A program made the position numbers and the translations under genes. Below are positions 1 to 50,362 of a stretch of DNA of 64,000 nt, in pieces. The DNA is from a virus. The DNA is taken from IMG/VR virus record IMGVR_UViG_3300047089_000152, positions 40,151 through 104,150 of that record. One strand, given 5' to 3'. A model generated the notes under the pieces. It saw nothing but the letters and a program-made list of their open reading frames with translations. It did no database searches and was not told where the DNA came from. The stretch's first letter is position 1; each line of letters begins with the position of its first letter.

Positions 1-86
1 ACAATGATGGTACACTGTAGGTACGACAAGGGGTAAGTAGGTCGCCGCAGGGTGGCCGCATGCCCCCGGATCTGGAGGAAAAAAAG

Positions 87-506
87 ATGGTGCGTGTATG
101 GCAAGTTCGTCACACCTTCACATCCAGTAATGGTGAGACATACCGTAATGAAAAGGGAGGCGAGGTCGGTATAGAAACAAAGCCCGGAAGTCCGATCTGG
201 GTCAAACCAGATGACCTCGATGAATTGATCGAGTCGCTCCTGGAAGTAAAAAACCATCCTGTGGAGCCATACAAGGCACCGGGATTCAGAGAAAGAACCA
301 GCAGTGACGAGCAGATCGTGCGAGTGGATGGTGGTTACGCCTACACATGGCCAGGCGAGCCGCTCGCGATCGGTGACCGTGTACTGCTTCCCGAGAACTG
401 GCTCAGTGCCGTGAAACACGGTCACGGACCGTTCCAGGGAACGGTAACAGGCTTCGGCACCGACTACGACGGTGTAATGTCAGCCGTTATCAAAAAGATC
501 GACTGA
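87..506 (+). CDS. hypothetical phage protein
   Basis: ORF; ATG at 87 follows a GGAGG RBS; upstream TGGTACACT promoter motif at 8-16. Confidence 0.7.
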   Translation: MVRVWQVRHTFTSSNGETYRNEKGGEVGIETKPGSPIWVKPDDLDELIESLLEVKNHPVEPYKAPGFRERTSSDEQIVRVDGGYAYTWPGEPLAIGDRVLLPENWLSAVKHGHGPFQGTVTGFGTDYDGVMSAVIKKID

Positions 507-532
507 CGGGGGCGGCGGGGGGCCTTACTTGC

Positions 533-580
533 CTTGTGCGAAGCAACTACCTGACCTGGGACGCTAAGCGTACACCTGTG
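533..580 (+). repeat. 48-bp imperfect direct repeat, copy 1 (upstream of a promoter)
   Basis: CTTGTGCGAAGCA-N7-GACCTGGGACGCTAAGCGTACACCTGTG, repeated 1135 bp downstream. Confidence 0.9.
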
Positions 581-598
581 AAGGGGTATGCTGGTGAC

Positions 599-928
599 AT
601 GGCCAAAGGAAACCTCCCGTTCGAGTCCCTCACCGCGGCGACAGCCGCAGGTCCCGGAGCTGTGAACGACCTGCAAGACACCCTCGCGCTGCATTCGCTG
701 ACAGCCCAGATAACCGACTTTGCCGGTACAGGAAACTGGACGATCAGGCTGGAAGCCTCACTTGACAACGTAAACTTCGTGGCATTGCAGAGCCAGACCC
801 TCAACGAAGACGTCAACATTCACTTCGTCGGCGTGGTCACCTTCCCCGCCCGGTACGTCCGCGCTAACCTACTCCTAGACTCCGGGGTGACGAGCATCAC
901 GGTTACCGCCTGGGTGGCAAGCGCCTGA
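599..928 (+). CDS. hypothetical beta-rich, possibly virion-associated protein; leaderless
   Basis: TATGCT -10 box lies 6 nt before ATG 599; LEASLDNVNF-type beta-strand sequence. Confidence 0.7.
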   Translation: MAKGNLPFESLTAATAAGPGAVNDLQDTLALHSLTAQITDFAGTGNWTIRLEASLDNVNFVALQSQTLNEDVNIHFVGVVTFPARYVRANLLLDSGVTSITVTAWVASA

Positions 929-931
929 GCT

Positions 932-1645
932 GTGATGATCGCCCACTTCTACCACACGTGGGTCGACGGCGAATGGGAACGCCCCGCTGCCGCGCATGTG
1001 ATGGCTATGGGTGCGGCCGGTTTGCGCCCGGACGTGTTCGCGGTCGGGGTTGTGGGTTCGGCGGAACGACGTAAGGCCGCGCGGGGCTGGTGGCGTAAGG
1101 CTGCCGTGGCTGATTCGGTTGAGTTCACCGAAGCCGACGCCGGGTACGAGCAGGTGACGTTGCGGCGGTTGCGGGAATGGGTGGCTACAGCGGATCCGGC
1201 CACCCCAGTGCTGTACGCGCATTCTAAGGGTGCATACAACCTGTCACCGATCACGGCGGTACACCGGGACGCTATGACATCAGGTGTGGTACGGCGATGG
1301 CGTGGAGCCGTCGCCGCGCTGACGGACCACGACGTGGCAGGCTGTTTCTGGAGCCTGGGGACACAGCCGCATTTCACGGGGAATTTCTGGTGGGCGCGGG
1401 CGGGGTATCTGGCTGGCCTGCCGGTGGTCGCGGATACGGACCGGTTCGCGGCGGAGTTGTGGTTGGGTCAGGATGACCCGGCTTGGTGTGAGCTGGGGGA
1501 ATTCACTTATGCGGAGATGTGTGAAGCGGTGCTGGGGCGGCCAGAGTTGGACGCTCCGGGGTTGGTGATGCCTCCGGGCGTGTCCCTGCTGGGGTCTCCG
1601 GCACCTGCCGCAACGATTCCGTATGGCCGGGCCGAGCGTATGTGA
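932..1645 (+). CDS. putative glycosyltransferase-like protein
   Basis: LYAHSKG and PHFTGNFWWA...AELW motifs resemble viral GT-associated proteins. Confidence 0.55.
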   Translation: MMIAHFYHTWVDGEWERPAAAHVMAMGAAGLRPDVFAVGVVGSAERRKAARGWWRKAAVADSVEFTEADAGYEQVTLRRLREWVATADPATPVLYAHSKGAYNLSPITAVHRDAMTSGVVRRWRGAVAALTDHDVAGCFWSLGTQPHFTGNFWWARAGYLAGLPVVADTDRFAAELWLGQDDPAWCELGEFTYAEMCEAVLGRPELDAPGLVMPPGVSLLGSPAPAATIPYGRAERM

Positions 1646-1667
1646 GGTGCCAATAGTATTTGCTTTG

Positions 1668-1715
1668 CTTGTGCGAAGCAATTAACCGACCTGGGACGCT
1701 AAGCGTACACCTGTG
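1668..1715 (+). repeat. 48-bp imperfect direct repeat, copy 2
   Basis: matches 533-580 and runs into the extended -10 TGGTACAAT at 1714-1722. Confidence 0.9.
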
Positions 1716-1728
1716 GTACAATAGACCT

Positions 1729-2556
1729 ATGGCCACCTACAAGACGCTGCGCAGTGACGACCCGAAAGTCCAGCAAGCCCGGCAACGCGCCGGGAAAATC
1801 GTCGGGGCGATGAACGACCTCGCCGCCCTCGTCCAACAGTCGTGGGACGCGAAAGACTGGCGCGTCCTCGGCTATGACTCCTGGCAGAGTTACACGGTCG
1901 GGGAGTTCGGCCACGGCGACACCGCCATCAAAGCCCGGCAGGTCATCGTGTCCATGCTCCGAGGAACCGGACTGTCCCAACGCGCCATCGCCGCGGAGAC
2001 CGGCGCGTCCGTCGCGACCGTCAACAACGACATTGCCGACCTGTCAACCGCACCCCCGGAGGGTGACCCTACGACGATCGACCGGCGACCCCGGCCGACT
2101 GTTCAGGAACCTGAACAGTCACTCAGAGTAACCGGGCTGGACGGTAGGACACAACCCGCCAGCAGAGGAGGCATGACAGGAGACCAGCGCAGAGAACGGG
2201 ACCGGCTACTGCGGGCGCAAAGACGGCAAAGAGAAGCGGCCCTCCGCGAAACCCACGCCGCCGACGCCGCCCGGCCGGTACCTGACATGATCCACGGTCA
2301 CCCCGTGACCGTCACCTGCCCGATGTGCGTAGAACTGGCACGCCCAGCCCGCGAAGCACCCGTTGAACCACTAGCTGGACATTCCGTCGAAACCCGGCTT
2401 CGGCTGCTGTTCGCCGGGTTCCTCGACGGTCTCACCCCCGACCAGCTCACCGCCCTGCACGACCACTGGGACGAGATCATGAACGAAACCGTCACAGACC
2501 GGATCACTAGCTGGGCCGCCGTCGGCCGTACCGTCGCGCAGGAAAGGGCAAGCTGA
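1729..2556 (+). CDS. helix-turn-helix DNA-binding protein; leaderless
   Basis: GLSQRAIAAETGASVATVNNDI HTH; TACAAT 6 nt before ATG. Confidence 0.75.
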   Translation: MATYKTLRSDDPKVQQARQRAGKIVGAMNDLAALVQQSWDAKDWRVLGYDSWQSYTVGEFGHGDTAIKARQVIVSMLRGTGLSQRAIAAETGASVATVNNDIADLSTAPPEGDPTTIDRRPRPTVQEPEQSLRVTGLDGRTQPASRGGMTGDQRRERDRLLRAQRRQREAALRETHAADAARPVPDMIHGHPVTVTCPMCVELARPAREAPVEPLAGHSVETRLRLLFAGFLDGLTPDQLTALHDHWDEIMNETVTDRITSWAAVGRTVAQERAS

Positions 2557-2975
2557 TGAACGGTCAGACTGTCCCCCGGCCCCGGCCGTGCGCGTCGTGT
2601 CCGTACCGTAGAGACGTGCCGTCCGGTGTGTGGGCCGCGGAAGAATATGACAAGCTACCCCGCTACGACGGGGACACGGGTGAGCAGGCGATGGCCGGGG
2701 CGTTCGGCGTGTTCATGTGTCACCAGGCTGACGGGCACCTGTGTTCAGGTTGGGTAGCCGCCCACGACATGCAGCACAACCTGGCGATACGCATGGCCCG
2801 CGACGTGGACATGCCAGCGGTCCTGTCGTACACCACGGACGTGTCGGTGTTTGGTTCCGGTGCGGAAGCCGCGGCGCACGGCAAGGCCGACATCGAGACC
2901 CCGGGGCCGGAAGCTATGCGGACCGTGGAGAAGATCACCGTGGTACGCGGTAGGCGCGGGAAAGGGAAAGGATGA
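2556..2975 (+). CDS. DUF6283-like Cys/His-rich protein
   Basis: PCASCPYRRDVPSGVW...CHQ...CSGW motif. Confidence 0.7.
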   Translation: MNGQTVPRPRPCASCPYRRDVPSGVWAAEEYDKLPRYDGDTGEQAMAGAFGVFMCHQADGHLCSGWVAAHDMQHNLAIRMARDVDMPAVLSYTTDVSVFGSGAEAAAHGKADIETPGPEAMRTVEKITVVRGRRGKGKG

Positions 2976-3133
2976 GGCGGCCTAGGACGGAGCTGGAAGC
3001 GTACCGGTGTCCTGATTGCGGGTACACGGCGTTGATACAGCGGCTGGCTAGCCGGAGGAAGCTGACGGGGCATTTGAAGTGGTTGTGGTGTGTGCGGTGT
3101 GAGGTGCCCACGAATCATGTACTGGTCCCCTAG
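2972..3133 (+). CDS. 53-aa zinc-ribbon protein
   Basis: ATGA-coupled to the upstream gene; CPDCG...GHLKWLWCVRC...NH. Confidence 0.6.
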   Translation: MRRPRTELEAYRCPDCGYTALIQRLASRRKLTGHLKWLWCVRCEVPTNHVLVP

Positions 3134-3145
3134 CCTGGACGGTTG

Positions 3146-3154
3146 TGGTACGCT
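3146..3154 (+). promoter_or_regulatory. extended -10 promoter upstream of a pentamer mini-array
   Basis: TGGTACGCT, the same motif found before other mini-arrays and leaderless genes. Confidence 0.6.
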
Positions 3155-3169
3155 GTGGGTACAGCAAAC

Positions 3170-3303
3170 GGACCGGAAGGGAAAGGCTGGGCGCGGCAGG
3201 CATCGCAGCGGCCGGGATAGCAGCGGATCGGAGCGGCAGGACAGGATTGGCAGGGCACGGCTGGGCTAGGTGTGGCTGGGCTGGGAACGGAATGGATTGG
3301 ACA
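3170..3303 (+). ncRNA. GGH-NN pentamer mini-array (2 units), putative guide RNA
   Basis: 13 pentamers, GGCAG-GACA delimiter at 3235, then 12 more pentamers. Confidence 0.75.
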
Positions 3304-3370
3304 CTAGCCGCACCGCATGCTACAGTAGAGGTATAGTCAACGGACGAGGGCATGAAAGGAACAACGCACC

Positions 3371-4036
3371 ATGCCACCACGCAAGACCACCACAGGCGGA
3401 CCAGTCCAGCTCACCAGGCTGGCAGAAGAAGTCGCCCAAATCCACATCGCCGGGGCTACGCCACTTATTATTCATAAATGGTCGGAAAAGGCGCTCAACC
3501 AGATGCGGATCGCCCAGTCCGGGGCAATTAAGCCGCCCCGCGAACCCAAGAACGCCGAAGAAAACGCCCACGCGGCAACATACTGGGTCGACGTCGCCGA
3601 GACGATCCCCGGCATCCCCAGCGTCTCATTCAAGGCCGCCATGGTCGGAGCCTGCCGGTTCTTCGACGGCCTCCCCATGACGACAGCAAAATTGCTGTTC
3701 TTCGTCGACGGGGTCGTCAGCGAAGCCAAGGGCGACGCGCCAGCACGCGACCTGCTCGTCCCGATTATCTCCGGCCCTGGGGAAATGCGGGAAGACACCC
3801 CGCGCAACGACAACGGAAACCCGGACCTCCGGTACAGGAATCAGTTCTTCCCGTGGAAAGCCGTACTCAACGTGCGGTTCATGCCCGCGAAGATCGCCCC
3901 CGAATCCGTCATCGCGCTAGCTGACGCCGCCGGTCGTGGCGGTGTCGGAGAATGGCGTCCATCCGCACCGAAAAGCGCGACTGGCACATACGGCCAGTTT
4001 CGTGTCATCACCCGGAAGGAATGGGAGTCGGCCTAA
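3371..4036 (+). CDS. stand-alone Cas7/RAMP-like protein, putative guide-RNA-binding filament
   Basis: N-terminal strand IAGATPLIIH, GIPSVSFKAAM (cf. RAMP IPxSSxKG helix), C-terminal glycine-rich loop GRGGVGEWRP...GTYGQFRV; flanked by repeat arrays. Confidence 0.7.
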   Translation: MPPRKTTTGGPVQLTRLAEEVAQIHIAGATPLIIHKWSEKALNQMRIAQSGAIKPPREPKNAEENAHAATYWVDVAETIPGIPSVSFKAAMVGACRFFDGLPMTTAKLLFFVDGVVSEAKGDAPARDLLVPIISGPGEMREDTPRNDNGNPDLRYRNQFFPWKAVLNVRFMPAKIAPESVIALADAAGRGGVGEWRPSAPKSATGTYGQFRVITRKEWESA

Positions 4037-4037
4037 A

Positions 4038-4595
4038 ATGGCGACCATCACCGTCGAACAGCAGTGGGCGTTCAAATCGGGTGCGCGTGTCCCGGGTGGC
4101 GTCCACGCCGAGGATGTGGTGCGTGAGAAGGAACAGATGGAAGACCACCTGGGCCGCCTCGCCACCACGGAGGAAGCCGCGGAAATGGTCCTCCGCTGGC
4201 CTACCAAGTACAAGGCGCACCGGGCGTTCGCACCGGCAACCGAGAAAGAAGCACTCCACGAAGCAGTGGTACGCGGTGTTCGGAGCGCCTGGAGTTCCGT
4301 GATTCAGGTCGACGTCGAAATCACCGAGGTCACCAACCGGATTTCCGGTGATATCGAGATCGCAACCAGGCGTGTCGACGCACCCGAAGTGAGATGGTTT
4401 CACGCCGTGCCAGCACGCGTCGGCGACACGCAACGAGTTTATGACTCGTTGCCGAATATCGCAGCCGATGCTGACAAGGAAGCGGCGCTGTCCGAAGATC
4501 TCGCCACGCAAGCACGCAACTTCTCCGCAAAAGTAGCCAGCGTCACTGGCGAGCTGGCGCGGTTGCACAAGTTGCGCAGCACCGCCGGAAATTAG
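4038..4595 (+). CDS. partner protein of the Cas7-like gene, function unknown
   Basis: ATG 1 nt after the upstream stop; predicted helical; sits directly before the main array. Confidence 0.7.
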   Translation: MATITVEQQWAFKSGARVPGGVHAEDVVREKEQMEDHLGRLATTEEAAEMVLRWPTKYKAHRAFAPATEKEALHEAVVRGVRSAWSSVIQVDVEITEVTNRISGDIEIATRRVDAPEVRWFHAVPARVGDTQRVYDSLPNIAADADKEAALSEDLATQARNFSAKVASVTGELARLHKLRSTAGN

Positions 4596-4598
4596 ACC

Positions 4599-4636
4599 AC
4601 CAGGTTCCGGCCGGGGAAACTCGGCCGGAACCTGGT
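4599..4636 (+). other. 17-bp stem with GAAA tetraloop at the 5' end of the array (processing, stability or terminator hairpin)
   Basis: ACCAGGTTCCGGCCGGG-GAAA-CTCGGCCGGAACCTGGT. Confidence 0.8.
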
Positions 4637-4644
4637 CGGTAAGG

Positions 4645-5923
4645 GGAGTGGAGGGGCAGGGACTGTCGTGGCAAGGAACGGCAGGGCACGGAGTGGATTG
4701 GCAGGATAGGCTCGGCGCGGCCAGGCGGGGAGCGTTTCGGAGTGGCATGGATTGGCTGGGACTGGCAGTATCGGATCGCAGTGGTCAGGGTAGGCAAGGC
4801 CCGGCCAGGCGGGGCTCGGTATGGCCTGCACTGGCGGGGAACGCAATGGAGTGGCAGGACCGGTGTGGAATGGCTGGGACGGGAACGGCGCGGTAGGGAA
4901 TGGAGTGGCAGGAACGGTGGGGCCGGGCGCGGCGCGGCTAGGCTCGGCGCGGACGGGCATGGATTGGCTGGGCAGGACAGGATCGGAGAGCAGGGGGCTG
5001 GCGCGGCATGGCACGGAGAGGCAGGAGAGGAACGGTCGGGACAGGAGCGGCAAGGAGCGCACCGGCAGGCAGCGGCAGGGAATGGCATGGAACGGACTGG
5101 ATTGGCAGGACAGGACCGGCATGGCCAGGAGGGGCATGTCCTGGAATGGAATGGCAGGAATGGCTGGGTACGGCGGGGCCGGGCGAGCATTGGACAGGAC
5201 CGGCAGTCGCGGAAGGGCTCGGCAGGGACCGGATTGCAGCGGCGAGGATGGGCTAGGCAGGAGCGGAACGGCAGGGCATGGCCTGGATCGGAGCGGCTGG
5301 GCAGGATAGGCATGGATCGGCCTGGGTAGGCAAGGAGGGGCTGGGACGGGACCGGATTGGCAGGGCAGCAGTGGAGAGGCAAGCCGTGCAATGGCGGGGC
5401 GGGGCGTGGCATGGACTGGACCGGCAGGACTGGACTGGACTGGATTGGAGAGCAGGGCAGTGGCAGGGATCGTAGGGGTTCGGACGGGCAGGTTAGGCTT
5501 GGACGGGCTAGGCGTGGCATGGGCCGGCAAGGAACGGCTCGGAGCGGCAGGGATTGGCACGGCTCGGAGTGGCAGGACCGGACGGGTACGACGTGGCGTG
5601 GCTGGCATTGGCAAGGACTGGCAGGAGTGGATTGGCAGGGCCGGGCTTGGCATGGCGTGGCTGGGAATGGCGTGGCAGGACAGGTGGGGCTTGGCGGGCC
5701 GGGGATCGGCACGGATGGGCATGGCATGGCCCGGTAGGGCATGGCAGCATTGGACTGGACCGGACCGGCAAGGCTTGGCTTGGCTGGGATCGGATGGGAA
5801 CGGCAGGAGCGGAGCGGACTGTCGTGGCATGGCATGGCCTGGCGTGGCGCGGATCGGACGGGCAGGATAGGTCGGGCGTGGAATGGAACGGACGGGCTGG
5901 GCATGGAACGGCAGGATAGGAGT
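4645..5923 (+). repeat. main GGH-NN pentamer array, about 21 units, putative multi-guide precursor RNA
   Basis: strict 5-nt periodicity; GGCAG+4-nt delimiters at 4700, 4764, 4853, 4907, 4971, 5020, 5104, 5153, 5202, 5256, 5300, 5364, 5423, 5487, 5571, 5620, 5674, 5743, 5802, 5861, 5910; all spacings are 5n+4. Confidence 0.92.
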
Positions 5924-5937
5924 GACCCGCAGGGCTA

Positions 5938-5966
5938 CTGTCGGGGTGGGCCGCGTGCCCCGGCAG
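5938..5966 (+). terminator. hairpin at the 3' end of the array
   Basis: CTGTCGGGGT...GCCCCGGCAG inverted repeat. Confidence 0.5.
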
Positions 5967-5980
5967 AAGTTCGGCGGTGG

Positions 5981-6133
5981 ATGATCTTGTGCTCGTGCGG
6001 CCATCCTGCGGTCGAGCATGACCTGAACCGTTCGGAGACTAAGCGAACAGTTTGCCTGACCACCGAACGGACTACGAAATGTCCGTGCGTGCTATATTCA
6101 CCAGACCTTCGTGATACACTAGAGGTACAATGA
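5981..6133 (+). CDS. small Cys/His zinc-binding protein
   Basis: MILCSCGHPAVEH...C...CPC. Confidence 0.55.
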   Translation: MILCSCGHPAVEHDLNRSETKRTVCLTTERTTKCPCVLYSPDLRDTLEVQ

Positions 6134-6999
6134 ACGAGACCATAGAACGAGAAGACCGCAGGGCCGTCACCGCGCTCACCTCCGGGGAAAACGCCACGAA
6201 GGTCACCGTCAAAACAAGCGACGGCAACTACGAAGAACGACAGCTAACCGTCCACGGGCTCGCACGGCTGATTCCCGTGATCGCACTGGGCGACATGGAC
6301 CGGCTGATAGACGACGTGCGCGAACACGGCGTCCTCGAACCCCTGATCATGTTCCAGGGACAAGTCCTTGACGGACGCAACCGGCTCGCCGTAGCTTCGG
6401 TCGTCGGCGTACCCGTGCAGCTCACCGAATTCGACGGAGACGAAGCCGCAGCCAGAAACTTCGTCTGGTCCGCGAACGCTGCGAGGCGGCACCTGTCCGT
6501 CCCCCAGATCGCGCTGGCCGCTGAACGGTTCGGTTTCGTCGACGCCGCCAAAGCCGAAGCAGGCCCCGACGACCCCAACCTGGATATCCGCTCGACGGTC
6601 GCACCATGGGCGCGAATCGCCGCGCGAAAGGTCGGTGCGATCACCCCGGCTACACTGGAACGGTTCCAGCAAGCCAGGATCCCCGAGGCACCCGACACGA
6701 TGCGCCGGGTCGATTCCGGTGAGATCCGCCGGGTCGACGTCGCGGTCAAGGAAGCGGTCGCGGAGCGGACCGTGCTCACCGGCCGTCTCATCCAGGTTCC
6801 ACCCCCGGTTGCGCGTACCGCGTGGGACCGGCTGGGCTGCGCGCGGGGTGACGTTCTCGCCGCGGAACGCGCCATCCTGGCAGGGGACTGGGGTGGGATG
6901 GAAAGGGACCAGTTCGCTGTCCGCGCCCGTGAAATCCAGGGAGCCCTGATCAGGATTCAGAATTTGTATCGTTATGGATCGGGCGGCAGGACCGGTTAG
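6130..6999 (+). CDS. ParB/Srx-like N-terminal domain protein
   Basis: LIDDVREHGVLEPLI...VLDGRNRL...SANAARRHLS. Confidence 0.85.
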   Translation: MNETIEREDRRAVTALTSGENATKVTVKTSDGNYEERQLTVHGLARLIPVIALGDMDRLIDDVREHGVLEPLIMFQGQVLDGRNRLAVASVVGVPVQLTEFDGDEAAARNFVWSANAARRHLSVPQIALAAERFGFVDAAKAEAGPDDPNLDIRSTVAPWARIAARKVGAITPATLERFQQARIPEAPDTMRRVDSGEIRRVDVAVKEAVAERTVLTGRLIQVPPPVARTAWDRLGCARGDVLAAERAILAGDWGGMERDQFAVRAREIQGALIRIQNLYRYGSGGRTG

Positions 7000-7057
7000 G
7001 ACGGGCTAGGAATGGCTGGGCTGGGCATGGACTGGAATGGCAGGAATGGAATGGCTA
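6985..7057 (+). ncRNA. GGH-NN mini-array (1 full unit), putative guide RNA
   Basis: GGCAG-GACC + 9 pentamers + GGCAG-GAAT. Confidence 0.75.
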
Positions 7058-7323
7058 AGCCGGATTTCGCCCACGGCGTGCAAGGCTACAACTGGCACAA
7101 GTGCCGGTGCGAACAGTGCCGGGCGGCTAACTCCGCCCGGTCCCGTACCTCCCGCGCTGCCCGCAAAGCACGCACCGCGGCGGGTGACCCCGCCGTCCCG
7201 CACGGGACCAGGGGCGGGTACACCAACTGGGCGTGCCGGTGCCTGCCATGCTCCCAGGCCAACAGCGAGGCGTGCCTGGAATACCGGAACGCCCACAGTA
7301 ACCGTCAGGACATCGTGACCTGA
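7051..7323 (+). CDS. actinophage-type zinc-finger protein
   Basis: two HG..GY...CRC..C repeats. Confidence 0.75.
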   Translation: MAKPDFAHGVQGYNWHKCRCEQCRAANSARSRTSRAARKARTAAGDPAVPHGTRGGYTNWACRCLPCSQANSEACLEYRNAHSNRQDIVT

Positions 7324-7399
7324 CACCGTGGCCAGCCCCGTACCACTGGTGTAGTGTGACCGGGGTACGTTCAATGCTGGCGGAAACAGAAGGGCATAC

Positions 7400-8044
7400 A
7401 TGTTTACTTCTCTACGGCGCGGCCTCCTGGTCGCTGCTGCTACCGCTGTCGCGCTGGGTGGTTACGCCCTGAGTGCCAGCGCTGCTACACCTGGCTGTAC
7501 CGCAGTGGCGGGGAACGCCTGCGGGTCCTGGAACACTGAGGTGCCGGGACTGCCCGACCTCGACGTGCAAGGCGGCGCAGCGGTCAGCGGCAACAGCCTG
7601 ATCGTCTTCACCCGCAGCAACCATGACAAGGCCGAGGATTTCATGGTCCAGATCGTCGCACCGGGAGCGACCTCTAAGTACACGGTTGGCGGCTTCACGG
7701 CCGGGGTCACCACTCCTCCCGCTGGCAGCGTGGCTATCCGCTACGCGCCCAATGGCGTGGACTCCGGGCTTTGCGTCTCGACGGTCAACCCGAACGGGCA
7801 CGCTGCCGCGCAGCTTCGCGTGTGCAGCAATAACACCACCCAGTTCAACCCGTTCCAGACTTTCACCTCGCCTGTGGCGTCTGGTGACTTCACGGCGGTT
7901 CAGTTCACCGAGGTGATCCACGGCTACGTGATGACCGACCCCGCCAACAACGGCTCGATTGGCGTCAAGGGCGCTCGCGTCCAGGTGATCTTCGCCAACA
8001 ACCTTCATCACACCGGCCAGTTCTGGGGACAGAACGGCGCATGA
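7400..8044 (+). CDS. secreted protein, possibly ricin-B/beta-trefoil lectin-like
   Basis: signal peptide; GLCVST...AQLRVC and terminal QFW motifs. Confidence 0.55.
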   Translation: MFTSLRRGLLVAAATAVALGGYALSASAATPGCTAVAGNACGSWNTEVPGLPDLDVQGGAAVSGNSLIVFTRSNHDKAEDFMVQIVAPGATSKYTVGGFTAGVTTPPAGSVAIRYAPNGVDSGLCVSTVNPNGHAAAQLRVCSNNTTQFNPFQTFTSPVASGDFTAVQFTEVIHGYVMTDPANNGSIGVKGARVQVIFANNLHHTGQFWGQNGA

Positions 8045-8157
8045 CGAAACGGCAGGCGGCAGCCGGCGTGGCCTACGTGCTCTGCGCGTTCCTCGCCATC
8101 GCCGGCTTCTGCCTGCTCATCGCCGCGCTGATCATCGCCATGCCCGGCATCGACTAG
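8041..8157 (+). CDS. small membrane protein
   Basis: ATGA overlap; single hydrophobic helix, 38 aa. Confidence 0.5.
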   Translation: MTKRQAAAGVAYVLCAFLAIAGFCLLIAALIIAMPGID

Positions 8158-8170
8158 GAAAGGTTCACGC

Positions 8171-8785
8171 ATGAGATTCAGGAAACGTATTCTGGTAACC
8201 GCGGCGGCCCTGGTAGCGTTCGCCGGCCTGGCGCTGTCCAGCCCAGCTGCCCACGCCTCGACACCGTCGATCTGCGGGAACGGCGGCACCGGGTACTGCC
8301 TCAACGCCTGGGGTGGCGGCGGCACCGACCTGCCAGTCAAGATGTACAACGGCGGGGTAGCCAACGACGCCTACAACTTCCAGCAGATCGTGTTCATGTG
8401 CCACGACGGGCACGTCCACGCAGCCGCCCCGTACGGCCCGTGCCCGTTCAACAACAGCAGCCTGGACTCGCAGATGAACGGCGCGGTGATCTTCGAGATC
8501 GCCTCTGGCAGGGACGGCCTGTGCGTCGGTTCAACGTCCTCAACTGTCGGCTCGACGGAGGAAGCCTGCCCCGATAGTTTCGGTAACTTCGGCGGCTGGG
8601 GCACGATCTACGCGCAGGCGGGTAACTCCAGCTGTCAGAGCCCGAAGTTCTTCGCGGAAAGCCGGTACTGGTCAGACGCCTACGGCGGGCTGTCCAGCCT
8701 CGCGTCCGGAGGGAACGTAGGCAAGCAGGCGTTCACCTCCCCGAACACCTCGGGGGCGACCTGCTGGGGATGGGTCAACACCTAG
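8171..8785 (+). CDS. secreted cysteine-rich protein
   Basis: signal peptide ending AHA; 8 Cys; RBS GAAAGG. Confidence 0.7.
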   Translation: MRFRKRILVTAAALVAFAGLALSSPAAHASTPSICGNGGTGYCLNAWGGGGTDLPVKMYNGGVANDAYNFQQIVFMCHDGHVHAAAPYGPCPFNNSSLDSQMNGAVIFEIASGRDGLCVGSTSSTVGSTEEACPDSFGNFGGWGTIYAQAGNSSCQSPKFFAESRYWSDAYGGLSSLASGGNVGKQAFTSPNTSGATCWGWVNT

Positions 8786-8798
8786 CCCACGACACAAC

Positions 8799-8832
8799 GA
8801 AGCCCCGCCGGTGGGAACACCGGCGGGGCTTC
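8799..8832. terminator. hairpin terminator between convergent genes
   Basis: GAAGCCCCGCCGGTG-GGAA-CACCGGCGGGGCTTC. Confidence 0.8.
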
Positions 8833-8866
8833 ACTGTGTCAGAGGTCGCGCTGTACAGGGTTCACC

Positions 8867-9328
8867 CTACCAGACGCGGAAGAACATGGTGGGCCCTCCA
8901 CCCCACCAGCCTATCCACCCGATCTGCTGCCCGGTGGAGTGCGCACCGAAAGTCTGATGCCACCACGCGGTCACCAGCTCCACGTGACCCGACCCGTAGA
9001 ACGCCAAATCTCCACGCTGCGGGGCATACACGCGGTGCAGGTGCCCGGACGCCAGCATCGAATACGTCGAATGCGGCAGGGAGATCCCCGCGTGGGCGAA
9101 CGCGACCATCACCAGGCCGGAACAGTCGTAAGACGGCCCGGTGCCACCCCACGCATACCAGTGGCCGTAAGCGTTGGCCGTGGCCCAGTTCAACGCCACG
9201 TTCCCCGCATGCGAACCGCCCAGCACCATCGCATGCGACGTGGCCGCGTGGGCTGGCGGGGCCAGTGCCGGGGTGGCGAACAGCAGCCCACCCAGTATCG
9301 CCGCGACAGCCAGCAGCCGGCGCGTCAC
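8867..9328 (-). CDS. secreted NlpC/P60 (C40) cell-wall peptidase
   Basis: YAWGGTGPSYDCSGL...GDLAFY...GHV; signal peptide; GTG start overlaps the upstream stop. Confidence 0.9.
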   Translation of the reverse strand: MTRRLLAVAAILGGLLFATPALAPPAHAATSHAMVLGGSHAGNVALNWATANAYGHWYAWGGTGPSYDCSGLVMVAFAHAGISLPHSTYSMLASGHLHRVYAPQRGDLAFYGSGHVELVTAWWHQTFGAHSTGQQIGWIGWWGGGPTMFFRVW

Positions 9329-10146
9329 TTGCACACCCACTGGGCGAAGGTGTCACCGGACGCCTTGAACTTCGCGACGGCGTTGAGGGCGTTGACGTAC
9401 GGGTTGTAGAGGTTGCCCGGCACCACCTGGCCCAAAATTTGCCAAAGCGAGGTCGCCCCGGAGGGGTTGTATGCGTAGACGTTCCCGCCTGATTCGCATT
9501 CGGCGATCTCCGCGGCGTGCGCCGCCGCCCATGCGGGGCCGCCAGCGCTGATCCACAGGGCTTCCAGCCCCGCGTAGGAGTAGTGCAGCGAACCGGTCAC
9601 CGCGGACCGGCGGACACTGGACTGTCGGGCTACCGCGTGGGCAGCGGCGTGGCACGGCACGTCCCAGCCGTCCCTGTCGTTGTCACCGCACTCGTTGGGG
9701 TAGCCGTACGTGATACCCCACACCTTCCCGTTGCGGGTCACAGCGTGCCGTACAGCGGCATGCGGGGCATGGTAGGTGGACCCGAGGTGGAGCAGCTTCG
9801 GGGGGTCGGTGCACCGGGTCAGGTTCAGGACCTGGCCGGGGAAGATCAGGTTCGGGTTGCGCCCGATGGTCTTCTCGTTCTGGTGGTAGAACCCGGTCCA
9901 GTCGTTCGCGACCCCATGGCAGTACTGTACGGCCAGGCCAGCGAGGGTGTCCCCCGCCCGGACGGTGTGCTGTACGGGGAGTCCCGCGTGGACGGGCAGC
10001 GCAGCGACTGCCAGCCGCAAGCCGACAGTGTCCGGTGCAGGTCGCACAGCTACCGCCGCGGGCGACGCATACGCGGCCGGGATCAGGGTAAACGTGCTAA
10101 CAGTGGTGAAAGCGAGGGCGAGTGCACCCGCCAGCATACGTTTCAT
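9325..10146 (-). CDS. secreted LysM + lysozyme-like transglycosylase (Rpf/SLT-like)
   Basis: HTVRAGDTL...NPNLIFPGQVL LysM; IAECESGGN...SLWQI catalytic motif; signal peptide. Confidence 0.85.
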   Translation of the reverse strand: MKRMLAGALALAFTTVSTFTLIPAAYASPAAVAVRPAPDTVGLRLAVAALPVHAGLPVQHTVRAGDTLAGLAVQYCHGVANDWTGFYHQNEKTIGRNPNLIFPGQVLNLTRCTDPPKLLHLGSTYHAPHAAVRHAVTRNGKVWGITYGYPNECGDNDRDGWDVPCHAAAHAVARQSSVRRSAVTGSLHYSYAGLEALWISAGGPAWAAAHAAEIAECESGGNVYAYNPSGATSLWQILGQVVPGNLYNPYVNALNAVAKFKASGDTFAQWVCK

Positions 10147-10307
10147 CGGTGAGGTTTTCCTTTCGGGAAAGGTACCTCGCTGAAACGTAGACCAGCGCTC
10201 CCCTCGCTGTCACCGTTTCGTGATGAGTCTTCCTGATTCACCCGATAGTCCACGATTCACGCAGGTCAGCCGTCTGGGTGAATCGCCGCGGTTCGGTTAC
10301 AAGACGA

Positions 10308-10344
10308 GAAAATACCCCGCAGCGCAACGCTGCGGGGTATTTTC
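10308..10344. terminator. bidirectional intrinsic terminator
   Basis: GAAAATACCCCGCAGCG-CAA-CGCTGCGGGGTATTTTC. Confidence 0.85.
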
Positions 10345-10376
10345 AGGGAGCCCAGGGGCAGCCCTTTTTTCGAGTA

Positions 10377-10640
10377 CTAACGCAACCCGCTGAGTGGTCC
10401 GCCGGTCACCCCTGTCACGTCCGGGGTGTTGACACGAGGTCTCAGTCCCGGACGGGAAGTGTGCGGGGCCATGTATGCGGCCACGGTGTGACCGATCCAG
10501 GCGAGCGCGAACGGAAGCACGTCCAGGACCGGCTGCGGGACCCCGTTATGGAACGCCGGGATGTACGATACAAGCGCCCACACGACCAGCCCCGTCACGC
10601 CCCCTGCAACAGCCCCCGCCTTGACCTTGGTCTCTACCAT
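10377..10640 (-). CDS. holin
   Basis: VETKVKA start, two TM helices, YMAPHTSR tail typical of actinophage holins; TATGAT 6 nt before ATG. Confidence 0.75.
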   Translation of the reverse strand: MVETKVKAGAVAGGVTGLVVWALVSYIPAFHNGVPQPVLDVLPFALAWIGHTVAAYMAPHTSRPGLRPRVNTPDVTGVTGGPLSGLR

Positions 10641-10647
10641 GGGCGCA

Positions 10648-11433
10648 TCATAACCCGTGCACGAGGGTAATGATAGAGACAATCACCCCGGTAGCGACGA
10701 TAAGCGCTACGACGATCGACACGACCGCGTTCTGAGACAGCCGCTGGTCGGTGCGCGCCTCCGTGTGTCCCCTGTCTGAGCCCTCACCCCGGTCGATGCG
10801 TTCTTTCAGTTCACTGATCCGGTCGGTGAGACTCTTATCCAGCGCGGTGATCTGCGTCCCCACCAGGTCGATCTGCTTGGTGAAGTTCGTCTCCGTCTTC
10901 GTCGCGGCGGTGGTGTTCGCGTCGTTCTGCTGGGACACGGATTCTTTCTGGGCGAGGAGCGCAGCGTCCAGAGCCTCCTTGCTGGACTTCTTGTCTTGCT
11001 CGCCTCGCGTGTCCCGTTCGGTGAACTGCTGCTGGATCGCGTTGAACCGCTCCTCGTGGAGCTGACGCAGCCCTTCGACGGCGATCTTGATGTCTGTCTG
11101 GAGCCGTTCCCGCAGCGCGTCGGACTGCTCAGGGCCCTGGTTGATCACGCCATCCAGGATCTTCATGATCTTCTCAAGCCCGGCGATCCGCTGGGTCAGT
11201 AGCGCTTCCAGGGAGTTGACTGAGTTCGCGATGTCGATCTGCCGCTGGGTGGCACCTTCGCGGATGGTGACCTCGTTGCGGCCGATCCGGGCTTCCAGGA
11301 TTTCTTTGACGGAAACCAGTTCGCGGCGCAGGTCATCCTTGGCCTGGGAGACTGCGTTGTTGGTCAGCTCGGTGGGGTCCTGCGTCACCCACCAGCCTTG
11401 CCCCGGCGGTGGGCTTTGTCCCGGGTCGGTCAT
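10648..11433 (-). CDS. coiled-coil protein with C-terminal membrane anchor (lysis region)
   Basis: heptad-rich; C-terminal TM segment. Confidence 0.7.
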   Translation of the reverse strand: MTDPGQSPPPGQGWWVTQDPTELTNNAVSQAKDDLRRELVSVKEILEARIGRNEVTIREGATQRQIDIANSVNSLEALLTQRIAGLEKIMKILDGVINQGPEQSDALRERLQTDIKIAVEGLRQLHEERFNAIQQQFTERDTRGEQDKKSSKEALDAALLAQKESVSQQNDANTTAATKTETNFTKQIDLVGTQITALDKSLTDRISELKERIDRGEGSDRGHTEARTDQRLSQNAVVSIVVALIVATGVIVSIITLVHGL

Positions 11434-11478
11434 GCTTTTATTATCAGGGACCAGCAGTCACGGCGGTGTAACGAAATT

Positions 11479-11784
11479 TTAGGCGGGGCCGCGGACACCA
11501 GCCAGCGCGGAATCGAAGTTGAACGTCGCGGGCTGCGTACCCACCCCGTAGTACACCTGAGCGACCGCGAACAGGTTGTTCGACTTCGTCCAGAACGTCG
11601 CCGCGTCAGCGGAGGAGAACCCGAGCGTTACCAGCGCCGCGGTCTGCGCCGCCTGGTCCGCGCCGAGCGTAGCGATCCAGTTCCACAGCTTCACGACAGC
11701 CGACATGTCGGCCTGCATCCCCTTCGCGACGCTGGTGAGGATGTTGTTGGCCTGGTCGCTGCTCGTAGTGACACCTACGGTCAT
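11479..11784 (-). CDS. hypothetical tail-associated protein
   Basis: abuts the minor tail gene. Confidence 0.65.
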   Translation of the reverse strand: MTVGVTTSSDQANNILTSVAKGMQADMSAVVKLWNWIATLGADQAAQTAALVTLGFSSADAATFWTKSNNLFAVAQVYYGVGTQPATFNFDSALAGVRGPA

Positions 11785-14700
11785 TCAGTTCCTCCTCGTT
11801 TTCCTCGTACGGTACACGATCGCGGAGTGTCCGGTACCGACAGTGCTGGACCAGTTGCAGTACATCGCGATGGAGTGGCTGGCGGTCGTGTCGAACGCGC
11901 AGTTGACGGCCACGTTGTTGATGGTCGCGAACTGGTTGGCGATACCGCCGATGTTGACGCCTTTCCGTGTGACCCCGCCGTCTAGCGCGCAGTTTACGGT
12001 CCCACCGGCCCCGGTCGTCTGGACGGTGGCGCGGAGCCGCAGGCAGAACGCGTAGGTCAGTCCCGTCTGGTTGATGACCGTCCCGACCGTGACAGAAGAC
12101 GTACCGCTGAACGCCACACCGTCAAGGAAAAGGTCCAGTGTGAAGGTGGCCGACGTTCCAGCCGGGGTCGTATACGTCCCGTCGCATTCAAGCTCAAACT
12201 CGGACCCGGCGATGGCCTCATTCGCCACGTAGTTCAGGGTGCTCGACAGGATGTGCGGGATCGTCTGCGTGTTCATCGTGAAGTTCGTCAGGTCGACCAC
12301 GCACCGGTCGATGATCAGGTCGTTCCCGGCGCTGGACAGGTACCGGAGCCTACCCTGCGAGCTGGTATACAGCTGGCTGGCCCCGGACAGCGCCGCGGGT
12401 GCGCCGGACTGGCTGACCAGGGTGAGCTGCTGACCCATGATCCCGACCGGGTAATTGTTCCCGACCGTGTCCGTGCCCGCGACCGGGGCGATCGACGTAA
12501 TCAGGTTCCCCGCCCCGACCGAACCGGTGTAGGCCAGGTAGTCGGGGAGCGTGTCGGTGCTGACCGACAGGAATTCCGCCGCCTGGATGATCGTCGCGTC
12601 GACGAACCCGGCGTAGACCTGCCCGGCGGCGATCAGCGACGCGGTGAGCGTGCCAGTGGCGATGTTGGACGCGACGATGGTGCCCGCCGCGATCAGCGAA
12701 GATATGATCGTCCCCGCCTGGATCGTGTTCGTCGCGTTGAACGTGATCGGGTTCCACGCCGACCCGTTCCACTGGGAGATCAGGCCGGTGGCCGAGTTGA
12801 TCCAGATGTCGTTCAAGTTCGGGTTGGCGGGGGCGTTCACGGAGATCGTAACGGCGTTCCCGCCCAGGGTGTGGATGGTGATCCCCTGGTTCAGCATCGA
12901 CGGGGTGATCGACCCGTTCGCGATCAGCCCGGCCAGGCCCAGCGAGCCCTGCGCCTGGGAGGAGACGGGGCTCCCACCGGGGATCTGCGCGGTCTGGATG
13001 GTCCCCGGGTTGAAACCGGTCTCCCACGGGGTTTCGGGGACTGCGTTGAACGCGAACGTCCACTCCTTCGCGTTCAACGTCTCGTTGTAACCCCACACCA
13101 GCTGCTTGATGACCGTGCTGGTCAGGAACGACGGGGGGTTCGTGATCTGGAAGTAGTCACCCAGGTCAAGGTTCGGGAGGGTGGAGAACAGGGTCGCTGA
13201 CGTCGACCTGATCATCTTGACGGACACGACCGGGAACCGGACCTCGTCGACAGCCCCGACGTTCAGGAGGAAATTAGCTATGCCAGGGCATTGCGTGTCA
13301 ACCGCCGCGTTGACGCTGCGCGTGTACCCGTAACCGTTCCCGATACCGTTTGGCGGGTTCAATATCGACATCGCACCGGCCGTCAAAATAGCCTGCTGCG
13401 TGTACCCCGTCCAGTTCGTGATCGTGATATTGTTCCGGGTCATCTGGTCGTCATACGCCGGGGCGAGGGACGCGTCGATGACCGCCGCGGTGTAGTTGAA
13501 CGTGACCGACACGACCTGGTTCGCCATCGACGCGTTCGTCCGGTACCCCAGGCCGAACTGGTCTTTCGTCTCATACAGCAGCCCGCAGTCGGTGTCCTCA
13601 ATCGACTGGAGCACGTTGGAGATCGTGTCGTCCAGCTGGGGCCCCAGCGAAGCTGACGCGGAACTGGTCCCGATCGTCTCCGTTGCTATGCCCTGCTCGG
13701 CGCAGACGCGGGTGAACCTGTCCAGCGCCTTCTCACCCACATACCCGTTCAGGGCTGTAGCAGCCGCGACCATCGACGTGGGGGCACCGTAGTTGACGTG
13801 GAGATGCCCGAACGCCGTGTCCATCAGCGCGAACGCACGCGAAACCTGAATCCGGGTGACCGCGGCGATCGTCGCGGTGGTCAGCGTGCCCGTCACCGAC
13901 TCGGTGATACCGGAGGCTCCCTGCTGGATAATCCTGAGCGCGAAGTTGATGTTACCACCGGAAGGGACAAGTTCCATGGACACCAGGTACGATGCGCCTT
14001 TGACGTTCGTCGTGGTCGTCCCGGAGAACACCACCGCCCCACCGGAGTTCACCCCCTGCATTTGCAGGGTCCCGGCCGCGTTCAGGTACAGCTCGAACTT
14101 CCGCACCGTCCCCGACGGGGAGTCGATCTCGACCAGGTTCCAGTTCGTGGTCCCAGAACCTGAATCACCCGCAGGGGGCACGGTAAGCAGGAACCGGGTC
14201 ACGTTATTCGTCGGTGTCCCACCGGCAGGGACAGTCGCGATGATAGAAGCCCCGTTAAGGACCGGGATCGCGTCGCTGCCGTGGAACGACTCACTCGACG
14301 CCAGCGACAGTCCCGCCTGCCCCCCCACGAACTGCTGCAACGCGTTTGCTGTGCCAGCCGGTGACCCGAACGGTACCAGCTGCCCCGACCCTGTCCCGTC
14401 CTCGCACGGCCAGTACGCCTGCACCGCAGGGCCCGTCAGGTTGTCCACGTACCGGCGGAACGCAGAACCTATCGTGGTCAGCTGCTGGGAGATGCGCCGC
14501 CAGATCCCCGACGCGACCACGTCCACGGACACGTCCCGGCCGGACGGGTCCCACCGGGGTGGCCACTCTGACACTTCACCCCAGAACCGGAAACCGGCAT
14601 AGTTCTGACCCGCCGTCGACGTGGCCGACAGGAATACCCTGATCTGCGTGTTCCTAGTGATGTTCGGGAAATACGCCCCGGCGCTGTTTTTCGGGGTGAA

Positions 14701-22598: not shown

Positions 22599-22667
22599 GC
22601 ATTGGAGGGGCATGGCATGGCACGGCCCGGAGTGCTGGGGTGGGGAACGGAATGGATGGGCAGGATA
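22599..22667 (+). ncRNA. GGH-NN mini-array (1 unit), antisense to the late operon
   Basis: 12 pentamers + GGCAG-GATA, intergenic. Confidence 0.8.
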
Positions 22668-39351: not shown

Positions 39352-39429
39352 GGCAGGATGGGATTGGCATGGCGCGGCAAGGTAGGGCTCGGATCGGCAA
39401 GGAATGGATAGGAACGGCAGGAGTGGCAG
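39352..39429 (+). ncRNA. GGH-NN mini-array (1 unit)
   Basis: GGCAG-GATG + 11 pentamers + GGCAG-GAGT, followed by a hairpin. Confidence 0.82.
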
Positions 39430-46425: not shown

Positions 46426-46499
46426 GGTATGGAGGGGTGCGGCTTGGCGTGGCTTGGCGGGGCGCGGCGGGGATTGCATTGGATTGGATTGGCAGGAAC
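46426..46499 (+). ncRNA. GGH-NN mini-array (1 unit)
   Basis: TATAAT at 46406-46411; 13 pentamers + GGCAG-GAAC; then a hairpin. Confidence 0.8.
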
Positions 46500-46500
46500 G

Positions 46501-46535
46501 TCACTGACCTGCACCTACGCGGTGCAGGTCAGTGA
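46501..46535. terminator. 15-bp hairpin between the mini-array and the portal stop
   Basis: TCACTGACCTGCACC-TACGC-GGTGCAGGTCAGTGA. Confidence 0.8.
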
Positions 46536-50303: not shown

Positions 50304-50362
50304 GGATAGGAGCGGCAGGGCTTGGCCTGGAGAGGATCGGCTGGGATTGGATTGGCAGGCTT
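50304..50362 (+). ncRNA. GGH-NN mini-array (1 unit)
   Basis: 10 pentamers + GGCAG-GCTT. Confidence 0.78.

What the first reader, a model, noticed from the sequence alone, without database searches (positions are those of the whole stretch)
4645..5923. The array has a grammar: about 21 distinct units separated by GGCAG+4-nt phase-shifting delimiters
Seen: delimiters at 4700, 4764, 4853, 4907, 4971, 5020, 5104, 5153, 5202, 5256, 5300, 5364, 5423, 5487, 5571, 5620, 5674, 5743, 5802, 5861 and 5910. Spacings run 44-89 nt and are always 5n+4. The NN strings differ between units, so this is not a slipped microsatellite. Inference: a library of about 21 guides of 8-17 dinucleotides, each specifying roughly 24-51 bp. 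Read antisense as codon positions 1-2 (residues partly ambiguous), units give peptide-like strings such as TEVKLAEVFGITYRKY (5492), ILGIIHVEPPNPW (5679) and LKGRHPFYSEIY (5305).
Basis: partly seen in the sequence, partly recalled or inferred. Interest (0 to 1): 0.9.

Follow-up and report, generated by a model that had tools for sequence, protein, structure and literature searches.

The report
Phage VIPR guide-RNA array, staggered form
The 1.28-kb five-base repeat tract is real.

Summary
Observation confirmed. Window 4645-5914 (+) holds 258 pentamers of the form GG(C/A)NN in 21 blocks of 9-18 units. Every block ends in GGCAG, whose last G is also the first G of the next block. That gives a -1 phase shift and spacings of 5n+4, exactly at the 21 coordinates listed.

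The gene just upstream (3371-4036) encodes a Cas7/RAMP-fold protein. Its family profile matches the solved SUSP1 Vipr protein, and all five published RNA-contact residues are conserved. Homologues in Mycobacterium phage Quico and Gordonia phage Ecliptus each sit beside an array with the same grammar.

This is therefore a VIPR system (bioRxiv 10.64898/2026.04.26.720920), in the published 'staggered array' form. Each NN pair reads two target bases and skips a third.

A 93%-identical relative has an array in the same place but shares no guide. Eight stand-alone guides lie elsewhere in the genome. One of them (S3) matches its neighbouring gene at 20/22 positions, in wobble phase.

I found no target for any of the 21 main guides, but the searches open to me were narrow. 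No RNA data exist.

This scan has already met VIPR arrays in at least 13 other genomes. Verdict: a new, large member of a known kind.

The parts
3170..3303 (+). Upstream mini-array of two guides. S1a is 3170-3239 and ends in GGCAG. S1b is 3239-3303.
   Evidence: Phase track; parse. The same position upstream of vipr holds a longer array in the relative L136.
3298..3326 (+). Promoter-like site (TGGACA, 17 nt, TACAGT, with a TG extension) in front of vipr.
   Evidence: Consensus scan. This is a consensus match only.
3371..4036 (+). vipr gene: 221-aa Cas7/RAMP-like protein (P0001, phrog_4652, no Pfam family).
   Evidence: The family profile A1 hits PDB 36pp_D 'SUSP1 Vipr protein' at E 2.3e-6 across the G-loop GvGDWRP. 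The AF2 model has pLDDT 88. The top Foldseek hits are Csm3, type VII Cas7, Cmr4 and gRAMP. It is 47.5% identical to Quico gp57 and 38.6% identical to Ecliptus gp19.
4038..4595 (+). Candidate vipr-accessory (vap) gene, 185 aa (P0121), function unknown.
   Evidence: It starts 2 nt after the vipr stop. It is conserved in L136. Only 3 homologues were found. It has no Pfam, PHROG or NCBIfam family. The AF2 model is unusable, pLDDT 48.8.
4599..4636 (.). 15-bp GC-rich hairpin between the vap candidate and the array.
4645..5914 (+). Main staggered vrRNA array: 21 guides, M01-M21, of 9-18 GG(C/A)NN units. Each ends in GGCAG and overlaps the next guide by 1 nt. A partial unit pair follows at 5914-5923.
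6130..6999 (+). ParB-like gene. Its 3' end (6946-6977) is the near-match site of solo guide S3.
   Evidence: Weak ParB-type PHROG and NCBIfam hits. S3 match.
6989..7043 (+). Solo guide S3: 11 units ending in GGCAG.
   Evidence: Under the 1-nt skip rule it matches window 6946-6977 (sense as on the minus strand) at 20 of 22 informative bases. The skipped base falls on the codon wobble position. None of 400 shuffles exceeded 17.
22604..22663 (+). Solo guide S4: 12 units, with an extended -10-like motif upstream and a hairpin downstream.
39356..39420 (+). Solo guide S5: 13 units.
   Evidence: Its best self match is window 40076-40113 at 20/26. That site lies inside gene 39478-40761 (minus strand) and is wobble-phased. 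One of 400 shuffles reached this score.
46426..46495 (+). Solo guide S6: 14 units, lying between the portal and protease genes. TGGCATATAAT sits upstream and a hairpin at 46476-46510 downstream.
50304..50358 (+). Solo guide S7: 11 units, next to the large terminase gene.

Best explanation
The tract is the main guide-RNA (vrRNA) array of a phage-encoded VIPR system.

How it most likely works:
1. The + strand is transcribed. This is inferred; it is the strand of the vipr gene.
2. The transcript yields about 21 vrRNAs of 9-18 pentamers (inferred).
3. On each vrRNA, one Vipr protomer (gene 3371-4036) binds each GG(C/A) motif and builds a helical filament. The two variable bases of every unit are left exposed. 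This is known for SUSP1 Vipr and inferred here from homology.
4. The exposed NN pairs base-pair with double-stranded DNA, reading two bases and skipping one. A guide of n units therefore specifies 3n-1 bp. Binding silences transcription of the target, most likely a rival phage, prophage or satellite.
5. Each guide ends in an invariant GGCAG that overlaps the next guide by one base. This shifts the 5-nt register by -1. I infer that the shift stops a filament from running across the junction and so marks the guide boundary. This is the 'staggered array' form in fig. S18 of the VIPR paper.
For: - Array grammar: G1 is invariant, G2 is 91% G, position 3 is C or A, NN is near-uniform, and there are 9-18 units per guide. 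The published range is 9-16 YNNGG repeats.
- Partner protein: the profile hits the solved SUSP1 Vipr at E 2.3e-6. H35, R156, D194, W195 and R196 align to the published RNA contacts H17, R138, D177, W178 and R179.
- Fold: the AF2 model (pLDDT 88) has a Cas7-type fold, and its top PDB hits are Csm3, type VII Cas7 and Cmr4.
- Conserved linkage: Quico gp57 and Ecliptus gp19 are homologues, and each sits next to an array with the same GGCA punctuation. Of 127 loci, nearly all fetched only for 12 phased GGNNN units, 48 carry a Vipr-family gene.
- The -1 shift made by GGCA dominates across 83 arrays, 220 of 324 shifts.
- Guide turnover: L136 has a 93%-identical Vipr and flanks about 80% identical, with an array in the same place but no shared guide.
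- The code works in this clade: a Mycobacterium szulgai prophage guide matches the Quico vipr gene at 23/26, with 10 consecutive units exact, in frame, and the skipped base on the wobble position. It matches its own vipr at only 17/26. Skips of 0, 2 or 3 gave no complex hit.
- None of the 21 main guides matches the phage's own genome above shuffled controls. The paper likewise reports no self-targeting.
Against: - No target was found for any main-array guide.
- No RNA data exist, so transcription, processing at the junctions and binding to Vipr are all inferred.
- Position 3 is A in 44% of units. The SUSP1 pocket sterically excludes purines. However, the paper also lists related consensus forms, including NNNGG repeats.
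- The main array has no structured 3' tail like that of the SUSP1 clade.
- The neighbouring 185-aa gene has no recognisable DNA-binding or nuclease domain.
- The VIPR type (I-VII) could not be assigned.
Confidence: 0.92

Rival explanations
1. At least some guides act on the phage's own genome rather than on rivals. Vipr loaded with a solo guide would bind a nearby own gene, for example S3 on the 3' end of the ParB-like gene or S5 on gene 39478-40761, and tune its transcription during infection.
For: S3 matches its own genome at 20/22, 12 nt upstream of itself, in wobble phase. The maximum over 400 shuffles was 17. S5 matches at 20/26, also in wobble phase. Both lie at or near the 0.8 identity threshold used in the VIPR papers.
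Against: The matches are imperfect. The published pattern is that self scores sit below scores to relatives, which avoids autoimmunity. The homologous site in L136 scores lower still (17/22), so no better non-self target is known either. The 21 main guides show no self match.
Confidence: 0.1
2. The array is a decoy or sponge RNA, or a G-quadruplex or R-loop-forming element. It would soak up a rival's or the host's RNA-binding protein, with no sequence-specific guiding by the NN bases.
For: Phased GG every 5 nt could form two-tetrad quadruplexes. Solo vrRNAs that redirect another element's Vipr are published. No target was found here.
Against: A sponge does not need 21 different NN strings with near-uniform base use, nor complete NN turnover between relatives while the GG scaffold is kept. 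The phage encodes its own Vipr right next to the array. The gapped code is seen working in the same protein clade.
Confidence: 0.04
3. The tract is a slipped pentanucleotide microsatellite, or a protein-coding region. Two minus-strand frames are open for 453 and 475 codons.
For: ORFs 4543-5904 and 4592-6019 on the minus strand. Tandem Repeats Finder reports only short period-5, -10 and -15 arrays.
Against: The units are not copies of one another. Period-3 power is 1.2, against 7-12 in flanking genes. The open frames follow from a C-rich strand that lacks stop codons. The invariant G1, the GGCAG punctuation and the linkage to a Cas7-like gene across distant phages are not expected from slippage.
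Confidence: 0.01

Closest known systems
VIPR systems, staggered vrRNA arrays (bioRxiv 10.64898/2026.04.26.720920, fig. S18)
   Same: - Tandem pentamers with a conserved GG plus one more base, and two hypervariable bases.
- 9-16 (here 9-18) units per guide.
- Adjacent guides overlap by 1 nt, so the end of one marks the start of the next.
- The array lies beside a small RAMP gene and one accessory gene, in a phage.
   Different: - The third base is C or A in nearly equal shares, rather than a pyrimidine.
- There are 21 guides in one array plus 8 solo guides.
- The accessory gene has no recognisable domain.
- The paper's type for this actinophage clade could not be read from the text held.
Type II VIPR of Escherichia phage SUSP1 (PDB 36pp; structures in 10.64898/2026.04.26.720927)
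   Same: - The proteins are homologous over the G-loop and thumb, and H, R and DWR RNA contacts are conserved.
- Layout: one guide upstream of vipr and an array downstream.
- Solo guides also occur in that family (10.64898/2026.10.15.759431).
   Different: - SUSP1 has four guides of about 100 nt, each with a conserved pseudoknotted 3' tail. Here the only shared 3' element is GGCAG.
- SUSP1 excludes purines at position 3. In the HMM alignment the G-loop of this family is one residue shorter at the position of SUSP1 C173. That might open the pocket, but this is my inference.
- Overall sequence identity is very low.
Class 1 CRISPR backbone proteins (Cas7: Csm3, Cmr4, type VII Cas7) with crRNA
   Same: An RRM-core RAMP fold (Foldseek E about 1e-5). 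Both polymerise along a guide RNA at a fixed step, with bases flipped out at regular intervals.
   Different: The step is 5 nt, not 6. Three bases per unit are sequestered rather than one. There are no CRISPR repeats or spacers and no cas1, cas2 or other cas genes. The system is phage-borne, and its published outcome is silencing of double-stranded DNA.

Membership tests
VIPR system | Vipr protein: a small (about 20 kDa) single-RRM RAMP with a G-loop and a thumb | tested here: met
   221 aa. AF2 pLDDT 88. Top Foldseek PDB hits are Csm3, type VII Cas7 and Cmr4 at E 1e-5 to 1e-4.
VIPR system | Sequence relationship to an experimentally characterised Vipr, with its RNA-contact residues | tested here: met
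   Profile A1 against PDB 36pp_D (SUSP1 Vipr) gives E 2.3e-6. H35, R156, D194, W195 and R196 align to H17, R138, D177, W178 and R179, and are invariant or nearly invariant in 43 family members.
VIPR system | vrRNA made of tandem GGY/NN pentamers (or a related consensus), about 9-16 per guide, with a conserved scaffold and hypervariable NN | tested here: met
   258 units: G1 100%, G2 91%, position 3 C 49% / A 44%, NN near-uniform. 9-18 units per guide. No guide is shared with a 93%-identical relative. The one deviation is A at position 3.
VIPR system | Arrays lie in the intergenic DNA flanking vipr, and this linkage is conserved in relatives | tested here: met
   Arrays lie on both sides of vipr here. 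The same holds in Quico, Ecliptus, L136 and L132. 48 of 127 loci, nearly all fetched only for the repeat pattern, hold a Vipr-family gene.
VIPR system | Staggered array: neighbouring vrRNAs overlap by 1 nt | tested here: met
   All 21 junctions read GGCAG with its last G shared with the next unit. GGCA is the commonest 4-nt unit across 83 arrays. Whether RNA ends fall there was not testable.
VIPR system | Guides match natural DNA targets under the 1-nt skip rule, above shuffled controls | tested here: inconclusive
   Main guides: nothing above shuffles in the phage's own genome or in 1.05 Mb of other fetched loci. Five guides gave 0 exact hits in IMG/VR. M15 gave 0 hits in 401 genomes of the order of the M. 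szulgai genome G001 at up to 3 mismatches. Positive side results: S3 at 20/22, and a prophage guide of the same clade against Quico vipr at 23/26.
VIPR system | vrRNAs are expressed as discrete small RNAs and co-purify with Vipr | not testable with these tools
   No RNA run is listed for this stretch. The phage is uncultured.
VIPR system | An accessory vap gene lies next to vipr | tested here: inconclusive
   A conserved 185-aa gene follows vipr directly. It has no family or usable fold. It is not similar to the genes after vipr in Quico or Ecliptus.
CRISPR-Cas | Direct repeats of 23-50 nt separated by unique spacers, with cas1/cas2 or an effector module | tested here: not met
   The only repeat is the 5-nt unit. 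No cas family was found in the nine flanking proteins.

The most novel reading that the evidence does not exclude
The solo guides scattered through the genome are aimed at the neighbouring gene itself. Each spells, in wobble phase, a near-copy of a segment of the gene beside it: S3 at 20/22, 12 nt away, and S5 at 20/26.

That would mean guides are born locally from adjacent sequence. They would serve either to exclude sibling phages carrying the ancestral allele, with the phage's own copy protected by a few mismatches, or to regulate the phage's own genes. A local guide-birth mechanism of this kind would be the VIPR counterpart of spacer acquisition, which is unknown so far.
Probability: 0.3. 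Interest if true: 0.6.

Novelty: new member of a known kind. Interest (0 to 1): 0.3.

Why it matters
VIPR is a newly described way of reading DNA with RNA, through a gapped two-in-three code, and is proposed as an ancestor of CRISPR. This locus adds four things:
- One of the larger natural guide sets: 21 guides in one staggered array plus 8 solo guides.
- A clade spanning soil phages and cultured phages: the same system is present but unannotated in cluster F mycobacteriophages (Quico, Florinda, Saal and others) and in Gordonia phages, where it can be tested in M. smegmatis.
- A scaffold that tolerates adenine at the third position, unlike SUSP1.
- Complete guide turnover between close relatives.

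It does not change what is known about the mechanism.

Tried and rejected
- Rfam scan of 3000-7300 at E up to 1: no family.
- megablast of window 1-12000 against cultured phages: no match.
- Literature searches for 'pentanucleotide repeat' with mycobacteriophage, and for 'GGNNN': nothing relevant. The VIPR papers were reached through the PDB hit.
- Exact gapped-pattern scans of IMG/VR for M18, M15, M20, M13 and M07 (10-11 units each), and for S3 with its two mismatched units masked: 0 hits each. These scans allow no mismatch, so they are weak tests.
- M15 with up to 3 mismatches in 401 genomes drawn from the order of the M. szulgai genome G001: 0 hits. The host is unknown, so this may be the wrong group.
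- All 29 guides against 1.05 Mb of other VIPR-like loci, and against the 120 Vipr-family proteins at amino-acid level: nothing above shuffles.
- The look-up of sequencing runs: no RNA holder listed; three soil or rhizosphere DNA runs hold only small shares. I did not lay reads.
The close relative was fetched with the search for related loci instead.
- The search for related loci on genome contigs gave only 3 loci, so no host could be called.
- The structure prediction for the vap candidate failed (pLDDT 48.8), and the protein atlas gave nothing.
- The paper supplements that are held contain no taxon table, so no VIPR type could be assigned.
- Early ideas dropped: a TRAP-like or CsrA-like protein sponge, Chi-like polar DNA sites, and Rho-utilisation sites. 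One array outside the window lies on the other strand, and the Vipr link explains the pattern.

Full report
**What is in the sequence**

Window 4645-5923 on the + strand is built of five-base units that begin with GG. A Viterbi track of the GG phase splits it into 21 blocks. At each boundary the register moves back by one base, because a four-base GGCA stands where a five-base unit would be.

Every block is then an exact multiple of five once the shared G is counted. Blocks hold 9-18 units (mean 12.3), and every one ends in GGCAG.

Over the 258 units:
- Position 1 is always G.
- Position 2 is G in 234.
- Position 3 is C in 126, A in 114, T in 14 and G in 4.
- Positions 4-5 use all four bases almost evenly (A .21, C .25, G .25, T .29). 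The genome as a whole is 36% A+T.

No two guides resemble each other; the highest pairwise NN identity is 0.57. Shuffled sequence gives essentially no window with 8 of 10 phased GG.

Within blocks the period-5 power is 5.9 and the period-3 power 0.55. Over the whole array the period-5 signal cancels because the phase cycles. Flanking genes show period-3 power of 7-12. The two long open frames on the minus strand are therefore a by-product of a stop-poor C-rich strand.

**Other arrays in the genome**

The window is bases 40151-104150 of a 104-kb IMG/VR phage record. It carries large terminase, portal and protease genes.

Seven further short arrays lie on the + strand, at 3170-3303 (two guides), 6989-7043, 22604-22663, 39356-39420, 46426-46495 and 50304-50358. 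One more lies on the minus strand outside the window. All but one end in GGCAG.

Several are preceded by an extended -10-like motif (TGGTACnnT or TGGCATATAAT) and followed by a hairpin. They look like single small-RNA genes set in gaps of the structural operon, on the opposite strand. The promoters and terminators are read from sequence only.

**The linked protein**

The 221-aa product of 3371-4036 has no Pfam family and falls in PHROG 4652, function unknown. It is 47.5% identical to gp57 of Mycobacterium phage Quico and 38.6% identical to gp19 of Gordonia phage Ecliptus. Each of those genes lies next to an unannotated gap holding the same kind of array, GGCA punctuation included.

The family has more than 600 members, all unnamed.

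A profile of 43 members hits one solved structure, PDB 36pp chain D, 'SUSP1 Vipr protein', at E 2.3e-6 over the motif GvGDWRP. The AlphaFold model (pLDDT 88) finds Csm3, type VII Cas7, Cmr4 and gRAMP as its best structural matches.

**What is known**

The PDB name led to three 2026 preprints.

VIPR systems consist of a small RAMP protein (Vipr), usually one accessory gene (vap), and vrRNAs made of 9-16 pentamers. In each pentamer GGY is held by the protein and the NN pair reads the target. One protomer binds one repeat. The NN pairs base-pair with double-stranded DNA while every third target base is skipped. That skipped base is usually the codon wobble position. The outcome is transcriptional silencing of rival phages, prophages or satellites.

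Seven types are described. One form is 'staggered arrays with overlapping vrRNAs', in which individual vrRNAs derive from positions overlapping by 1 nt. Related repeat consensus forms such as NNNGG are listed. Solo vrRNAs away from vipr are also described.

The SUSP1 residues that hold the two guanines and the pyrimidine (H17, R138, D177, W178, R179) align with H35, R156, D194, W195 and R196 here. All are invariant or nearly so in the family.

**Identification**

On this basis the locus is a VIPR system and the tract is its main staggered vrRNA array. I rate it supported.

The differences from the studied SUSP1 type are:
- Adenine at position 3 in 44% of units, where the SUSP1 pocket excludes purines.
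- No structured 3' tail beyond the shared GGCAG.
- An accessory gene (4038-4595) with only three homologues and no recognisable domain.

In the HMM alignment the G-loop of this family is one residue shorter at SUSP1 C173, one of the pocket residues. That may explain the tolerance for A, but this is my inference.

**Independent checks made here**

1. *Linkage.* Of 127 loci, nearly all fetched only because they hold 12 phased GGNNN units, 48 carry a Vipr-family gene detectable by plain tblastn. Across 83 arrays of at least 150 nt, 220 of 324 phase shifts are -1, and GGCA is the commonest four-base unit.
2. *Turnover.* Contig L136 has a 93%-identical Vipr and flanking genes about 80% identical. 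It carries an array at the same place, but none of its guides matches any of ours above shuffles. The scaffold is kept and the NN content is replaced.
3. *The code in this clade.* I ran an all-against-all search for exact nine-unit gapped matches over 1.24 Mb. It gave one non-repetitive hit, and only under the 1-nt skip. A guide of a Mycobacterium szulgai prophage matches the vipr gene of phage Quico at 23 of 26 informative bases. Ten consecutive units are exact, in frame, with the skipped base at the wobble position, over the conserved GEGDEQLVPI motif. The same guide matches its own vipr at only 17/26.
4. *Self-avoidance.* No main-array guide matches the phage's own genome above shuffled guides.

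**What could not be shown**

No target was found for any of the 21 main guides.
- Collection scans accept only exact patterns. Five guides and one masked solo guide gave nothing in IMG/VR.
- One guide with up to 3 mismatches gave nothing in 401 genomes drawn from the order of the M. szulgai genome G001.
- The host is unknown.
- No RNA run holds the stretch. Transcription, processing at the junctions and loading onto Vipr are inferred from the family.

**A side observation**

Solo guide S3 matches its own genome at 20 of 22 informative bases. No shuffle among 400 exceeded 17. The site lies 12 nt upstream of S3, inside the 3' end of the ParB-like gene, and the skipped bases fall on wobble positions.

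S5 matches gene 39478-40761 at 20/26, also wobble-phased. One of 400 shuffles reached this score.

Notes from this scan on other genomes report the same pattern. It could mean exclusion of sibling phages whose allele matches perfectly, self-regulation, or local birth of guides. I could not distinguish these. The only relative available scores lower (17/22, counted by hand from the sequences).

**Verdict**

This is a real, well-formed and unusually large VIPR guide array. The kind is already described in 2026 preprints, and this scan has already met it in at least 13 other genomes.

Noticed in passing
window 6989-7043 (S3) and 6946-6977: Solo guide S3 matches the 3' end of the adjacent ParB-like gene at 20/22 informative bases under the 1-nt skip. 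The match is in wobble phase and lies 12 nt from the guide. No shuffle among 400 exceeded 17.
   Followed up: partly
window 39356-39420 (S5) and 40076-40113: Solo guide S5 matches an unusually AT-rich coding segment of gene 39478-40761 (minus strand) at 20/26, wobble-phased. One of 400 shuffles reached this score.
   Followed up: partly
L132:5823-5891 against L129:3692-3730: A guide of a Mycobacterium szulgai prophage VIPR matches the vipr gene (gp57) of Mycobacterium phage Quico at 23/26, in frame. It matches its own vipr at 17/26. This looks like one VIPR aimed at another.
   Followed up: yes
L129:2990-3240 (Quico), L130:2940-3160 (Ecliptus): 33 phage records, about 22 distinct phages, carry a Vipr homologue annotated only as 'hypothetical protein': cluster F mycobacteriophages (Quico, Florinda, Saal, Gorge, BobaPhett and others), Gordonia phages (Ecliptus, ODay, UmaThurman, Pipp) and one cyanophage. 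In Florinda and Philus a hypothetical ORF is annotated over the array itself.
   Followed up: partly
L136:6587-7341 and L136:5000-5230: The close relative (Vipr 93% identical) has a shorter, more degenerate main array with no shared guide. Its array upstream of vipr is longer. Its S3 equivalent is cut down to four units.
   Followed up: yes
genome 33344-33418 (outside the window, minus strand): One more 11-unit solo guide ending in GGCAG, the only one on the minus strand.
   Followed up: no
window 7012-7323: An ORF that starts inside the S3 array gives PHROG hits to HTH and HNH families (E 3e-14). I did not settle whether it is a real gene overlapping the guide or a composition artefact.
   Followed up: no
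window 4645-5923: Because the register steps back by one base at each of 21 junctions, period-5 power over the whole array is near zero (0.27), while it is 5.9 inside each guide. Whole-region spectral scans would miss such arrays.
   Followed up: yes
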